Origin: Thermodesulfobacteriota bacterium
GTDB lineage: Bacteria; Desulfobacterota; Desulfobacteria; Desulfobacterales; C00003060
Reading direction: 5' to 3'
Length of the DNA: 64,000 nt
Assembly: GCA_034189385.1 (NCBI GenBank)
Contig: JAXHVD010000015.1
Coordinates: 58,497 to 122,496, forward strand
The translations under genes were made by a program, and so were the position numbers. Positions 27,108-32,101 of this stretch are shown here, one piece after another (position 1 is the stretch's first letter; each line of letters starts with the position of its first letter). Under the pieces are notes generated by a model. It was given only the letters and a program-made list of their open reading frames with translations. It was not told the origin of the DNA and made no database searches.

Positions 27108-27186
<79 letters not shown>

Positions 27187-27217
27187 TAGACATTCTCTTC
27201 CTTCTGAGAAGATTGCC

Positions 27218-27283
27218 GTTGGTATCACCAACAACCTTTCTCGCCGCCTTCAAGAGCATCGATCAGGCAAAACAAAAAGCAGC
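27218..27283 (+). pseudogene. Fragment of GIY-YIG (UPF0213-like) nuclease
   Basis: [21 protein letters not shown] resembles the YxG.T.nL.rRl.eH motif; no start and no C-terminal half. Confidence 0.5.
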
Positions 27284-27651
27284 CACCGTGTGAGAGATCC
27301 ATATCGTCTGTGCCTGTCTGTGTGCGTCTGTGGCAAAACATTCCTCGTAGTTTTTGAGCCCAAGATAGGCCGTTCTACGATTTGTTACCCGTGAGAATCC
27401 TTGACAAAAATGCTCCGTAGTGGTAGGGTCCCTGGCGACTTACGTTGTAGCCCATTGACCCTAACCAAGAGGGTGCCATGAAGTGATTGTTAAGACCCTG
27501 TTTCTCCTAAAGAGAGGCGGGGTTTTGTGCTTCCAGAGATCTGTAATGTGCTCGGCTAACGACAGGTTTGAGTTTATAAAGAAAGGGTTTGAGAAGTTGA
27601 GACACTGTTTTGGCACCTGAAGCAGTATCGGTTCTGCCGAGGGGCAGGTTC

Positions 27652-28036
27652 ATGACAGGTAAGCATGACATAGTTCCGGTTCAGCAGGTTAAAAGGACTA
27701 TTTTGCTGGTGCGAGGTCAAAGGGTGATACTGGACGCCGACCTTGCGAAGCTCTATGGGGTCCAGAATAAGGTTTTCGCGAACGCTTCCGTATGCTTTCG
27801 GGGAACATGGGGCCATCATGGCTGCCAGCGTCCTCAATACGCCAAGGGGCATAGAGGCCAGTATCCTCGTGGTGCGGGCGTTCGTGAAGCTTCGAGAACT
27901 GCTGGCAACCCATAAGCAACTGGCACGGAAGTTCCGGGAACTGGAGAAGCATATCAAAGATCATGATGGGAAGATTGAGGTCATTTTTAAGGCAATTCGC
28001 CAACTCATGGCACCGCCTGAGAAGCCCAAGAGGATT
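27652..28036 (+). pseudogene. ORF6N-domain DNA-binding protein, internally deleted and frameshifted
   Basis: RGQRVILDADLAKLYGV in one frame, LPYAFGEHGAIMAASVLNTPRG...VRAFVKLR in another; the intervening part is missing. Confidence 0.75.
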
Positions 28037-28382
28037 CACGCCGTTAAACGTCGGTTTCCCGCATGTTCTTCAAGAGCCATATGGCGCAGAGCCGGAGCCG
28101 CATGTTAGCACTCAATTCTCCTGCCCTGTGTTTAACTGGGGAGATAGGTTTTGAGGTCAAGGAAAAGCGTGCGGTCTAAGGTAAGCGCAAGAAAGGGAAG
28201 AACTGAGGCCCGGTGAACCGGAGCACGGGTGTGGATATCTGAATGATGAGACAAGTCATGGTTCGAATTCAACCTATGATCAGATAACGGGGCAGATCGT
28301 TAACATGATCGGCAAACCGAATAATTAATATTTAAGATCTGACCCTGGGCTCTGGGCTTTCTCCGTTAAGTGCTAAAAATTA

Positions 28383-28601
28383 ATGAGCCTTAAATTCAAG
28401 GAAAAATTTATTCGCTTTGGGCTTGTTGTAGTTGCTTTAATTGTGATCGGGACAGGTCTGATCCCATTACTATTTCAAGGTGATCTTTTTTATTCGAATT
28501 GGTGGGGAGGGCTTGTGTTTGCGCCAGTGGCTGTACTGGCAGGACTGTTCTTTTTGTATTTGGTTCTATTCAAATTCGGAAAAATAAACAAATTGAAATA
28601 G
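28383..28601 (+). CDS. Small two-TM membrane protein, integron gene-cassette ORF
   Basis: AT-rich; starts shortly after core site GTTAAGT (28365); followed by attC. Confidence 0.7.
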   Translation: MSLKFKEKFIRFGLVVVALIVIGTGLIPLLFQGDLFYSNWWGGLVFAPVAVLAGLFFLYLVLFKFGKINKLK

Positions 28602-28659
28602 ACTCAATTGCGATGATTCAATCCTAAAATTGAGTCTCCTTCTATTAAACTAAGGCCGC

Positions 28660-28721
28660 ACTTAACATAGCGCTGGAGATGACGCGCAAAAACCGCGCGC
28701 GTCTCAGCTCAACCGTTATAT
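28660..28721 (+). mobile_element. Integron attC recombination site
   Basis: R'' ACTTAAC, 5-nt spacer, L'' GCTGGAGATGACGCGC pairing with L' GCGCGTCTCAGC, 6-nt spacer, R' GTTATAT; 62 bp. Confidence 0.85.
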
Positions 28722-28734
28722 GCGAAATGGGACT

Positions 28735-29157
28735 TTATCGGTTTCGTGAGTTTGCGAGGACAAGGTTTACCTTTAGACCGGAGATCCGCTTGAAATGTCG
28801 AAGGTTCCCGGTAACAAGCTCCAAATTATGGCCAATGGCTGTAGCCGCAATTTGAATGTCAGCATCAGGAAGGATCATACCTGTGTCTTCGAGATGAGCG
28901 CGGATGCTACCAAAAACCTTAGCAATGCCGATGTCGTAAGGCAGAACTGTGACGGCGGGCAAAACTCGCTGCTCGATATTTGATATGTGGCGTTCGCGGT
29001 CATTGGAACGATAGGCACCTTTGTATAATTCGCCTATCACAACAGCACTCGTGAATTGCTCTTCGCGAGCCACTCCCATTATCCATTTCACATAGGCTGT
29101 TGCGGGGCGTGGCCGGAGAAGCTCCGAAATTGCATCAGTGTCAAAGAGGAATGCCAT
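28735..29157 (-). CDS. vapC: PIN-domain toxin (VapC family)
   Basis: FLFDTDAISE, E in IGEL, DIQIAATA, LVTGNLRHF. Confidence 0.92.
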   Translation of the reverse strand: MAFLFDTDAISELLRPRPATAYVKWIMGVAREEQFTSAVVIGELYKGAYRSNDRERHISNIEQRVLPAVTVLPYDIGIAKVFGSIRAHLEDTGMILPDADIQIAATAIGHNLELVTGNLRHFKRISGLKVNLVLANSRNR

Positions 29158-29159
29158 AG

Positions 29160-29441
29160 TCAGCGTTCGAGATCAGGCGTGCTTCGTTGTCCCTGCCGAG
29201 GGGAGGCGTCAAGTATTGAAGCTAATTCTTCGCTATTCTCCCAACCGCCGGCAATACTGGCGAGCCCACTGTCCGGACCTGCTTTCCTCAAGCGTTCAAG
29301 GTGTTCGAGATCGCTGGGGCTAACAAGAGCGGCGACTGGTTTCCCGTGCCTTGTAATGAGCACTGCGTTGCCCGCTTCAACTTTGCGGATGCATTCTGAG
29401 AAGGTGGCTTTTGCCTCGGCCACGGATATATTGTCTTCCAT
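29160..29441 (-). CDS. Phd/YefM-family antitoxin
   Basis: ISVAEAKATFSECI...VLITRHGKPVAALV; directly upstream of the PIN toxin. Confidence 0.92.
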   Translation of the reverse strand: MEDNISVAEAKATFSECIRKVEAGNAVLITRHGKPVAALVSPSDLEHLERLRKAGPDSGLASIAGGWENSEELASILDASPRQGQRSTPDLER

Positions 29442-29456
29442 AATCGGCCTCCTTTT

Positions 29457-29490
29457 TGACCATTATGACCATTATGACCAGAATGTCAAG
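29457..29490 (-). promoter_or_regulatory. TA promoter overlapped by 9-bp tandem repeats (likely operator)
   Basis: TGACCATTA-TGACCATTA-TGACCAGAA; minus strand TTGACA-N16-CATAAT. Confidence 0.65.
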
Positions 29491-30212
29491 GGCTGAGTTG
29501 AAAAATCACATAGCGGGATAGGGAGAGGCCTCGAGGCACCGCCCACCCACAGCTTCCCTTGAGGTTGGACCATGGCAACTGGTAGTGATGGCAGGATATA
29601 GTGGTGAAAATGGCCCGTAAATAGGCCTTGGAGTAGGGTTTTTGATACTAAAATTGGGCTTCTAAGATCAGGAAAAGAAGGTTCCAACAGGGCAACCAAG
29701 GGGGGGACCTTGGGTACATACCCCCGCCCTTAGTGATTCAGAGATGGACTCAGAGAATTTTTGCAAAATTCAGCCCCCAGGCAAAACCTTTGTGAATGCT
29801 GCTGGTTGCACCATACGGCCCAAATATTGGTAAAATAGGCAAAATACGCCTTTATTACCTAGTCCAACTTTTGAGGCTATTGACCAAAAAGGAGTTATTA
29901 GGCAGATCTAACTTGACCGAGTGACTGAACTCCTATCGTTTCTTACATGCCCGAATGTTTTGTCAGAGATGGCATAGGGCTAATCATTAGAACACTGGCA
30001 AAAGTAAGGCTGAGAACAGGCGTAGGGACATCCTGGTTTTTGAATAGATATTCAGGTATTCTCACGGAGAGAGTTTGGTTGATTATCCCATATATGGTCT
30101 CACTGGTACGGGTTTGACTTGCGGGTAGAACATTTACATTTACTTGACGAACACAATGGGACGAACGCTTGAGCGTTTCGATGCCGTGAAGGTCCTTTGT
30201 AAGGAGGACGTT

Positions 30213-31508
30213 GTGCAGAGGTGCTTTTCTATTGGAATAGTCCTGTTGGCAGGGATCTTGCTCACCAACAATGCCTTTGCTGTCATCCAAATCCATGCAG
30301 ATGTGCCTGTAATCCGTTTAGATCCTACTGCAGTGACCACATGGGAAGAACGTGGTCAAATGATGGGTGATGCCGTCAAGGCAGAGTTTCCGAATATTGA
30401 ACACACGATTGATAGTTATTTGGCGGATCTTGTTGAATATCAGCAGGCGATTTTCGACAACTATATTCGAAGAATGCCAAAGATAAGAGACAATATTTCC
30501 CAAGCCTATGTCGAGGAAGTGAATGGCCTGTATTCTCGATTCACGAGTATTTCGGAGACATCTATACTTGGAGACGGCCTTCTGTCCCACGAGGAGTTTT
30601 GGGGGTTTCAGTTGATACCAGATATTGGAAGATGGACTAACTGCTCCGGTTTTGGGGTCTTCGGAGATTATTCATCTTCCGGGAAGCCGATAGTGGGGAG
30701 AAATCTGGATTGGCCCGTCACAAATGATGCCAAGCAAATCCAAGCCATAATAGTTTATCAGTGGGGAGAGGGAGTTGAAGTTGTCAACATAGGTTTTGCA
30801 GGATTTCTGGGTGTGATAACAGGATACAACAGTAGTGGCCTTTTTGCAGGAATATTCGATTCTGATATGGGGGGAGCCTATCCTACTCTTACCAACCAAC
30901 GCTCTTACGTCTTTGATCTAAGATATGTCTTGGAGAGTTTTTCTTCAATTGCCCATGCATCCAATTACTTGTCTAGTCAACCCTATGCCTTCAGTCATAA
31001 TATACTCCTTGCCGACAAAACAGATGTTCAGGTTTTGGAACACCCGGAAGGCGTAAATGGCCAACTCAGAACTGCCACGACTCCACTGCGCAGTGACATA
31101 TCGTGGGCCAAGACAAATCAGATAGCTGTGGTGAATTTCTTCGCATCCCAGGGCTTTTCGAATGGGGCTAGAAGTTGGAACTATAATCGTTGGGATCGTC
31201 TTAGAACGCTAGCCAAGTTTGACGATATCAGCAAGGCAACTGTGGACGAGGTCAAATCGGTCATGCACGATACTGCCAACGGGCCGTACAATCAGATATT
31301 TAACAGGTTAACCGTGCAATCTATGGTCTTTACTCCAGGCGATGGGGCTTCTGATGGCCATTTGCACCTGTCTATTACCAGTAGTGGTCACGCTGATGGT
31401 GGCGGTGACGGCGAAGGAGCAGAAGGCTCCAACAGCAACGGCGGGGGAAAAGCCTCGAGCAGCGGCGGGTGACTCATTGAGACTGTCGCCACCGGTCTTC
31501 GGTGGTAG
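30213..31508 (+). CDS. Secreted C45-family (Ntn-hydrolase) peptidase/acyltransferase; ends at 31472 if TGA is a stop, at 31508 if read as Sec
   Basis: AAGGAGG RBS plus GTG; signal peptide ending AFA; NCSGF nucleophile, GRNLDW, TGYNSSGL; Gly/Ser-rich tail then TGA-LIETVATGLRW-TAG. Confidence 0.75.
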
Positions 31509-31511
31509 ACG
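31473..31511 (+). promoter_or_regulatory. Candidate bacterial SECIS element
   Basis: Stem GTC-GCCACCG / CGGTGGT-A-GAC beginning 12 nt after TGA; apical loop GTCTT starts 22 nt after the TGA. Confidence 0.5.
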
Positions 31512-31607
31512 AGGCAGGCTCCAGACAATTGCTGCAATTTAGGACCTATTTACCATTGAAGCGGCTGGCTCCAGCGCGTCTCTCGTGGCAGGGGCTGTTT
31601 ATTTCCG

Positions 31608-31664
31608 ATAATCGTCGACTATCTTTGTTTTTTGACGAACGGTTTTCGGCGTGGTCTTGGCAAG
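31608..31664. repeat. 57-bp intergenic element, copy A
   Basis: Ungapped 48/57 identity with 34804-34860 (manual alignment). Confidence 0.75.
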
Positions 31665-32101
31665 AACTGACACATCGGATTGGACCGGTTCTGAGGTGCC
31701 ATCTGAGCACGTGATCCAACCTCGCTTGGGTAGTCCTCCCCGGGTAGCTCAGTTGGAAATATACGAATCCTTCTCGGCCATGATACCCTCAATATGTTGA
31801 AAACCATTAACCGTTCTCTTATACGGGACCTGTCCGTTTCGTACCAAGTCAACCTCCTTTTGGTTTAGGTATTCCCTTGCCCAAAGTAGGTAGTTCTGTG
31901 TGTCAGAAACAGTATTTTTCCAATCAAAAAATCAGGCATTTCCCATCGTTAATCCCACAATCGCCCCGATTGACTTATGGCGGCGTATAGGCCACAAGGG
32001 AAAAGGGGGAATGGGCGCATCTATAGGACGTGGTACTTTTCTCTGTAAAACGAAGCTTCACCCGGAAACTTTGTATCCGGCGTGATAGGGGAGATTTAAC
32101 C

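What the first reader, a model, noticed from the sequence alone, without database searches (positions are those of the whole stretch)
31400..31511. Probable selenocysteine in a C-terminal sorting-type motif of a secreted C45 hydrolase
Seen: the ORF ends in a Gly/Ser-rich linker (GGGDGEGAEGSNSNGGGKASSSGG) at a TGA (31470-31472), and the frame continues LIETVATGLRW to a TAG at 31508. A hairpin (GTC-GCCACCG / CGGTGGT-A-GAC) starts 12 nt after the TGA; its 5-nt loop begins GT, 22 nt from the codon. Established: bacterial SECIS elements are hairpins just 3' of UGA with a G at the start of the apical loop (E. coli fdhF), and many exported proteins end in a Gly-rich linker plus a GG-C-F-I-x-T-A motif (CFI-box type). 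Inference: GG-UGA-LIETVA is that motif with Sec at the Cys position. This would be selenium in a putative anchoring/processing tail rather than a redox active site, and gene callers would truncate it.
Basis: partly seen in the sequence, partly recalled or inferred. Interest (0 to 1): 0.82.

Follow-up and report, generated by a model that had tools for sequence, protein, structure and literature searches.

The report
Selenocysteine in a protein sorting tail
A secreted enzyme of a sulfate-reducer-type bacterium most likely reads a UGA stop codon as selenocysteine inside a short, portable C-terminal tag that many unrelated exported proteins share, which would put selenium in a probable sorting or attachment signal rather than an active site.

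Summary
Observation confirmed. The TGA (31470-72) is followed by a hairpin meeting all four published bacterial SECIS criteria, and the genome has selA/B/C/D. The hairpin alone is not unusual; the family evidence carries the case. Pattern scans found the same GG-TGA-[FL][IV]xT[AV]A tail on about 20 clusters of unrelated exported proteins from Desulfobacterota-type genomes and sediment metagenomes, in short, transmembrane and full CFI-box-CTERM forms. A hairpin at one fixed register is present in 43 of 49 TGA tails but 3 of 68 Cys tails, with compensatory changes. Four of four long tails pass NCBIfam NF041770 when read through, and the frame beyond TGA is under purifying selection. TAA, TAG or TGG never replaced TGA in 122 genomes (6 hits, all TGA). 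So this is most likely an unlisted selenoprotein class: a Sec variant of the catalogued but unstudied CFI-box tail. The window's own short tail does not reach the NCBIfam CFI models. That the tail sorts or attaches proteins is inferred; no processing enzyme tracks it. Earlier scan notes cover Cys CFI tails on other DNA, none a Sec form. No experiment yet.

The parts
30202..30207 (+). Shine-Dalgarno-like AGGAGG before the GTG start
   Evidence: sequence; a related strain has ATG at 30213 (G>A)
30213..31508 (+). CDS of a secreted C45-family (Ntn) autoproteolytic hydrolase, 431 aa when UGA is read as Sec (419 aa if UGA stops)
30213..30281 (+). probable signal peptide (basic, hydrophobic, AFA cleavage site)
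   Evidence: by inspection of the translation; no predictor run
30339..31346 (+). C45 proenzyme domain (aa 43-378)
   Evidence: NF040521, 134.7 bits
30642..30644 (+). Cys144 in NCSGF, probable autoproteolytic nucleophile; the active site keeps Cys, not Sec
   Evidence: position; role from recalled knowledge of the C45 family
31398..31469 (+). Gly/Ser-rich linker ending in GG
   Evidence: sequence
31470..31472 (+). UGA, inferred Sec420, at the Cys position of the CFI-type tail
31470..31505 (+). short tail U-LIETVATGLRW; same subtype as U-LIDTVATGLWW on a papain-family protein (L112, L116) and Cys forms such as CLINTAANSLSW and CFVGTVVDGLGW in the genus
31485..31510 (+). SECIS-like hairpin: 7-bp upper stem 31488-94/31500-06, 5-nt loop GUCUU 31495-99, bulged A, 3 lower pairs; its 3' arm overlaps the TAG
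31506..31508 (+). true stop codon TAG
31578..31595 (+). terminator-like hairpin with T run downstream of the TAG (consensus match only)

Best explanation
UGA 31470 encodes selenocysteine. SelB binds the in-frame hairpin (G-led loop, 22 nt downstream) and delivers Sec-tRNA, so the protein ends GG-U-LIETVATGLRW. The tail is a Sec version of the CFI-box C-terminal motif: a portable cassette (Gly run + Cys/Sec + hydrophobic heptad, carrying its own SECIS) shuffled onto many unrelated exported proteins in Desulfobacterota-type bacteria. Shown by computation: the TGA, the SECIS-type hairpin and its covariation, its restriction to TGA forms, continued coding constraint past TGA, Sec machinery in the hosts. 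Inferred (about 0.6 given Sec): after export the Cys/Sec is the reactive handle of a sorting or attachment signal, covalently joined to a lipid or envelope partner, with Se giving a more reactive or more reduction-resistant link than S in a sulfidic habitat. The enzyme that would act on it is unidentified.
For: Sec machinery. Structure-blind filter: 43 of 49 distinct TGA tails have at least 5 of 6 stem pairs at the fixed register versus 3 of 68 Cys tails. Covariation: 23 cells with both-side changes, 0 of 500 shuffles as high, best slid register 14; RNAalifold predicts the same stem; the window and L112 carry two compensated pairs against the consensus. Synonymous codons are locked only in TGA forms: Gly GGG 44 of 47 vs 15 of 68, Tyr TAC 35 of 39 vs 15 of 36, Arg CGT 39 of 42. 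Read-through long tails score 93.8-108.3 bits on NF041770 (cut-off 40), 4 of 4. dN/dS beyond the hairpin below 1 in 36 of 36 measurable pairs, median 0.31; 55 of 91 pairs saturated. TAA/TAG/TGG control: 6 hits in 122 genomes, all TGA. selB over cut-off in 9 of 10 host genomes, selA in 4 of 4 more. Hosts: 21 blastp clusters, Pfam subtilase, papain, M10, fn3, TSP3, FG-GAP, CAP, DUF362, PKD and others. C45 homologues carry interchangeable modules at the same C-terminal slot.
Against: No experiment or proteomics. The window's tail does not hit NF041763/NF041770. No Cys-tailed C45 orthologue among 82 homologues. The hairpin alone is ordinary (z -0.74 over 51 nt; loose SECIS rule met by 119 of 1232 frames). 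Tails are related, so counts and p values overstate independence; many may descend from one cassette, and alignment A1 was hand-picked. Sec use is probably common in this lineage, so co-occurrence with selB discriminates little; one host bin labelled archaeal lacks selB, though its 2.6-kb contig encodes a protein 70-73% identical to deltaproteobacterial hosts, so misbinning is likely. For function: myxosortase core in 0 of 5 other hosts and below cut-off here; rhombosortase over cut-off here but in 0 of 4 other hosts; no recurring sorting-enzyme neighbour in 2-2.5 kb flanks; the short form lacks a membrane helix.
Confidence: 0.85

Rival explanations
1. The TGA is a plain stop from a Cys-to-stop mutation of a CFI tail (pseudo-tail), and the hairpin is incidental or an RNA-stability element.
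For: TGC/TGT to TGA is one change; the enzyme domain is complete without the tail; one TGA tail (L118) has a broken hairpin and a degenerate downstream frame, so such mutants exist; the hairpin alone is not significant.
Against: Hairpin at one register in 43 of 49 TGA vs 3 of 68 Cys tails, compensatory changes, intact 69-aa domains under purifying selection past TGA, no TAA/TAG/TGG forms; no T run after the stem and a separate terminator-like site downstream.
Confidence: 0.07
2. UGA is read through as Cys, Trp or another residue by a SECIS-independent route.
For: Read-through alone would explain the conserved downstream frame.
Against: UGA ends over a thousand long frames in this genome; a tRNA-Sec(TCA) is the only TCA tRNA ARAGORN reported; Trp was not seen at this position; the hairpin matches the SelB-type consensus.
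Confidence: 0.04
3. Sec is inserted, but the tail is a redox or metal-binding appendage (selenenyl-sulfide or diselenide dimerisation, binding to metal-sulfide surfaces) rather than a sorting signal.
For: Most characterised selenoproteins use Sec for redox or metal ligation (PMC13188914); no sorting protease tracks the tail; 13 of 47 TGA tails are short and have no membrane helix.
Against: A single Cys/Sec without a CxxC partner, always after a Gly run at the extreme C-terminus of signal-peptide proteins of unrelated function, often followed by a membrane helix and basic end (21 of 47), in the slot where C45 homologues carry membrane anchors.
Confidence: 0.3

Closest known systems
NCBIfam NF041770 CFI-box-CTERM domain and NF041763 CFI-box putative sorting motif
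   Same: Gly run, then Cys/Sec-[FL]-[IV]-x-T-A-A at the C-terminus of exported proteins; long Sec forms pass NF041770 at 94-108 bits.
   Different: Sec instead of Cys, with an embedded SECIS that forces R-M/K/V after YG[SF]; neither model name mentions selenium; the window's 12-residue tail is below both models.
[quoted passage not shown]
   Same: Invariant Cys after a Gly-rich stretch near the C-terminus; the TM+basic Sec forms have the same three-part layout.
   Different: Different motif; no myxosortase over cut-off in this genome or 5 other hosts; short forms lack the helix; the passages read mention no Sec form.
Bacterial SECIS elements (fdhF-type consensus)
   Same: All four consensus criteria met; loop resembles this genome's fdhA hairpin.
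   Different: Here the SECIS travels inside a short portable tag and, in short forms, overlaps the stop codon.
Selenoproteins with C-terminal Sec (SaoC, KCU-star, CUAEP-tail radical SAM; bioRxiv 10.1101/2022.07.06.499078)
   Same: Sec near the C-terminus, truncated by gene callers.
   Different: Those are single families with CU motifs; this tag sits on about 20 unrelated protein clusters and has a lone Sec.

Membership tests
bacterial SECIS consensus (PMC13188914 Fig 2A) | 3-9 nt apical loop and 4-16 bp upper stem | tested here: met
   5-nt loop, 7-bp stem
bacterial SECIS consensus (PMC13188914 Fig 2A) | G in the first two loop positions, mostly G[G/U] | tested here: met
   loop GUCUU
bacterial SECIS consensus (PMC13188914 Fig 2A) | 16-37 nt from UGA to loop; MFE at most -7.5 kcal/mol | tested here: met
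   22 nt; -15.8 kcal/mol
new selenoprotein family (Haft and Gwadz review criteria) | at least ten candidate examples | tested here: met
   47 distinct tails after dropping 2 filter false positives (criteria read)
new selenoprotein family (Haft and Gwadz review criteria) | stop at the site is always TGA | tested here: met
   6 of 6 hits TGA, no TAA/TAG/TGG in 122 genomes; small sample, the large scans asked for TGA only
new selenoprotein family (Haft and Gwadz review criteria) | similarity runs through U to Cys homologues of like length | tested here: met
   14 Sec and 54 Cys long tails align without gaps over 80 columns; short Cys/Sec pairs in the genus. Met for the tail, not for the C45 protein itself
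selenoprotein | selA, selB, selC, selD in the genome | tested here: met
selenoprotein | Se detected in the protein | not testable with these tools
   needs 75Se or mass spectrometry
NF041770 CFI-box-CTERM (window protein) | 69-aa domain at 40 bits or more | tested here: not met
   window tail is 12 aa, no hit
NF041770 CFI-box-CTERM (long Sec relatives) | 69-aa domain at 40 bits or more | tested here: met
   4 of 4 tested, 93.8-108.3 bits
NF041763 CFI-box sorting motif (window protein) | 14-position motif at 15.9 bits or more | tested here: not met
   no hit listed for the window; Sec relative L041 scores 15.0; most Cys tails of this genome also fall below the cut-off
MYXO/JDVT-CTERM systems | cognate CPBP myxosortase in the genome | tested here: not met
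   two CPBP proteins here, MrtJ 39-41 of 75 bits, Mrt_core 18-22 of 100; 0 of 5 other hosts
MYXO/JDVT-CTERM systems | motif + membrane helix + basic cluster | tested here: not met
   absent in the window tail; present in 21 of 47 Sec relatives
C45 autoproteolytic acyltransferase/hydrolase | NF040521 at 85 bits or more | tested here: met
   134.7 bits

The most novel reading that the evidence does not exclude
The UGA-SECIS cassette is a selenium-gated localisation switch. Termination at UGA yields a complete enzyme without its tag (and, in the TM forms, without its only membrane anchor), while Sec insertion yields the tagged form whose selenol is the covalent attachment point (seleno-lipid or selenide link). 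Selenium supply or partial read-through would then set the ratio of released to cell-bound surface proteins, a non-catalytic use of Sec absent from the inventory read here.
Probability: 0.3. Interest if true: 0.92.

Novelty: new variant of a known kind. Interest (0 to 1): 0.82.

Why it matters
The 119-family inventory of prokaryotic selenoproteins (PMC13188914 Table 1) has no CFI-box or sorting-tail entry; it is dominated by redox and metal sites. A portable Sec tag on subtilases, papain, C45, metalloproteases and repeat proteins would add many selenoproteins that homology-based searches miss and that databases hold truncated. It also gives a handle on an unstudied, widespread tail: Cys/Sec interchange says the side-chain chemistry matters, and Se is a natural label (75Se, isotope pattern) for finding what the CFI-box residue is joined to and where the chain is cut.

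Tried and rejected
GGNGGNTGAYTNAT looked enriched in the genus, but the 30 loci read and 32 stretches read later were mostly ribosome-binding-site/ATG contexts or chance; only the window and G052:C101 were tails. Regex hunt for this genome's selenoproteins was too noisy and its output was cut; redone narrowly. Phylum pattern search: 3 of 401 genomes, one a chance hit. Order search: 73 matches in 251 genomes, 70 Cys, 3 TGA of which one chance; Sec forms are rare. Viral contigs: 1 hit, an unrelated TGG. C45 relatives in 41 genomes: none with this tail. Strain X2 differs at 39 of about 1490 bases, none listed in 31439-31518 (one row not shown); too few changes to be evidence. No RNA holder listed. 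AlphaFold model of the long tail (pLDDT 78.8, four helices) had no fold match at Z 5 or more: uninformative. Tree of long tails needs 3-5 Cys/Sec changes but has 76 columns and kept the SECIS-constrained ones: origin unresolved. Myxosortase, rhombosortase and neighbour searches gave no partner. Rfam has no family for the hairpin. Covariance model R1 was built with the window sequence, so its hit is circular; it found one new divergent tail, L328. Literature searches without a hit for the finding: 'CFI-box', 0 papers; 'CFIATAA', 0. Haft and Tolstoy 2025 could not be read; known only from its rows in Table 1. BSepDB supplement was cut when stored, so its family table may not have been seen. No language-model look-alike search of the tail was obtained.

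Full report
Observation. The sequence is as described: a frame from GTG 30213 (AGGAGG at 30202-30207; ATG in a related strain) encodes a signal-peptide-bearing C45 hydrolase (NF040521, 134.7 bits), then a Gly/Ser linker, TGA 31470-72, LIETVATGLRW and TAG 31506-08. The hairpin GCCACCG-GTCTT-CGGTGGT has its loop 22 nt after the TGA and folds at -15.8 kcal/mol. It meets the four consensus criteria quoted in PMC13188914 (passages). Alone it is weak: z -2.41 on 35 nt, -0.74 on 51 nt, and a loose SECIS rule is met after 119 of 1232 long TGA-ended frames of this genome.

Host machinery. The genome has selA, selB, selD with an in-frame TGA and tRNA-Sec. It also has five Cys-type tails of the GG-C-F-[IV] kind on other long proteins, beside this one TGA form. 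Only 2 of the 1232 frames have the exact stem register seen here; the other is an HmcF/TmcB-like Fe-S protein with UGH, a motif in the published list.

The protein family does not settle it. Of 82 C45 homologues only a 97% strain variant shares the tail and is likewise cut at GG; the rest end, by eye, in membrane helices, dockerin-like or TSP3 modules or are fragments. The C-terminal slot is thus interchangeable, but there is no Cys-tailed C45 orthologue.

The tail family does. A scan of 185,579 species genomes for [GS][GS]GG-TGA-[FL][IV]xT[AV]A gave 25 hits; 11, in 10 genomes, are by eye true tails on long secreted-type frames (one, L057, has a frame break in the Gly run), 9 of the 10 genomes titled Deltaproteobacteria, Desulfobacterales, Desulfobacteraceae or Syntrophobacter-type. 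A filter blind to RNA structure (long or open upstream frame, Gly-rich end) kept 61 of 107 matches, 49 distinct; 43 of 49 have at least 5 of 6 pairs at the window's register. Two of the 49 are filter false positives (L063, L096) and one (L118) looks like a true nonsense mutant with a broken hairpin. Among the 46 rejected rows 10 had the stem, 7 of them real tails missed by the filter. In the Cys control (70 Cys matches in 251 genomes of the order, 68 distinct) 3 of 68 have it. These sequences are kin, so the p value printed there overstates.

Covariation and codon evidence. On a hand-picked gap-free alignment of 50 tails (47 of the 49, plus the window, L057, L071) the stem shows 23 both-side changes, 0 of 500 shuffles as high, and beats all slid registers (the structure came from these sequences, which favours it in the slide control); RNAalifold finds the same stem. 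The window and L112 (U-LIDTVATGLWW on a papain-family protein) swap two pairs against the consensus while keeping pairing. Synonymous choices that build the stem and loop are fixed only in TGA forms: Gly GGG 44 of 47 vs 15 of 68, Tyr TAC 35 of 39 vs 15 of 36, Arg CGT 39 of 42 vs 0 of 4. Residue 10 after U is Arg in 42 of 49 TGA tails but mixed in Cys tails: the RNA structure dictates the protein there.

Read-through is under selection. Of 47 tails, 13 are short, 21 have a membrane helix and basic end, 13 are long. Four of four long ones tested pass NF041770 at 93.8-108.3 bits. Beyond the hairpin, dN/dS is below 1 in all 36 measurable of 91 pairs among 14 long tails, median 0.31. With TAA, TAG, TGG and TGA all allowed, 122 genomes gave 6 hits, all TGA. 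selB passes its cut-off in 9 of 10 host genomes; the exception is an archaeal-labelled bin whose 2.6-kb contig encodes a protein 70-73% identical to two deltaproteobacterial hosts. selA is in 4 of 4 further hosts. I did not measure how common Sec use is in the lineage, so this co-occurrence is modest evidence. In the genus a second Sec tail, U-LMGTVVSSLGC (5 of 7 pairs), sits on a metallophosphoesterase whose homologue in another family carries the TM-type Sec tail; Cys counterparts of the window's short subtype exist (CLINTAANSLSW, CLIDTAASSLSW, CFVGTVVDGLGW), one with 6 of 7 pairs, suggesting Sec-to-Cys reversion. Databases hold these proteins cut at the UGA: 5 of 9 truncated queries were found as such, three under NCBI accessions UCE82014.1, UCE52202.1, MGD9322198.1, and the window's own protein is held at 438 aa ending in GG.

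How it most likely works. Shown: a UGA-plus-SECIS cassette inside a CFI-type tag on 21 clusters of hosts with subtilase, papain, M10, fn3, TSP3, FG-GAP, CAP, PKD, DUF362 and other domains (21 of 24 scanned had a Pfam hit), bearing Sec- or Tat-type signal peptides by inspection. Inferred: after export the lone Cys/Sec is the reactive attachment point of a sorting signal, by analogy with MYXO-CTERM, whose Cys residues are needed for cleavage and are proposed, not shown, to be lipidated (PMC11980579 passages). Against a simple transfer of that model: no myxosortase passes cut-off here or in 5 other hosts, a rhombosortase passes here but in 0 of 4 others, no enzyme recurs in the flanks, and short forms have no helix. 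A redox or metal-binding appendage remains a real rival (0.3). Because termination at UGA leaves the enzyme domain whole, partial or Se-limited read-through would give tagged and untagged forms; that switch is my most novel reading (0.3).

Comparison with what is known. It works like a CFI-box tail; the long Sec relatives are members of NF041770, the window's 12-residue tail is not a member by score of NF041770 or NF041763. Papers seen: PMC13188914, section 7 parts 1-2 of 3 with the whole 119-row table, plus passages: no CFI, CTERM or sorting entry. BSepDB PMC13326102: passages and one supplement cut in storage: no CFI. Haft and Gwadz preprint: passages and section 5. Myxosortase preprint: passages, no CFI or selenocysteine. 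deep-Sep and SelCysML: passages, no CFI. Full-text searches for 'CFI-box' and 'CFIATAA' gave 0 papers. Haft and Tolstoy 2025 was not available, and current RefSeq could not be queried for U-bearing records, so prior recognition by curators is not excluded. Earlier scan notes describe Cys CFI tails on other DNA, none with Sec.

Verdict. Observation confirmed; Sec reading well supported (about 0.85-0.9) by family-level evidence; sorting role plausible but untested. New variant of a known kind, interest 0.82.

Noticed in passing
window 31587-31705: Intergenic element of 60-100 nt with about ten diverged copies (75-91% identity) in this genome and in many other sediment contigs; no Rfam match.
   Followed up: partly
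L306:105-1448 (G000:C1, minus strand): HmcF/TmcB-like Fe-S protein with an in-frame TGA in TE-UGH and the same hairpin register; likely a selenoprotein of a listed type.
   Followed up: partly
L228, L310, L191, L195, L274: Cys CFI tails that keep most of the hairpin (for example YGSRMA after Cys): probable Sec-to-Cys revertants with fossil SECIS.
   Followed up: partly
L328 (G496:C115): Divergent Sec tail U-LINTAAYEFRMQK whose loop is AGUUU, with G at the second position, found only by the covariance model.
   Followed up: partly
P0005-P0017: C45 homologues end in TSP3-like repeats plus a short conserved hydrophobic MPW[IL]PLLL terminus, possibly another C-terminal tag.
   Followed up: no
window 27108-31508: The C45 gene lies in a variable-looking stretch after tRNA-Pro with a PIN-type toxin-antitoxin-like pair (28735-29441; label recalled); no close C45 orthologue in 24 genus genomes searched, one weak hit.
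   Followed up: no
G000:C22:33497-33958: A rhombosortase over the TIGR03902 cut-off in this genome, not in four other Sec-tail genomes.
   Followed up: no
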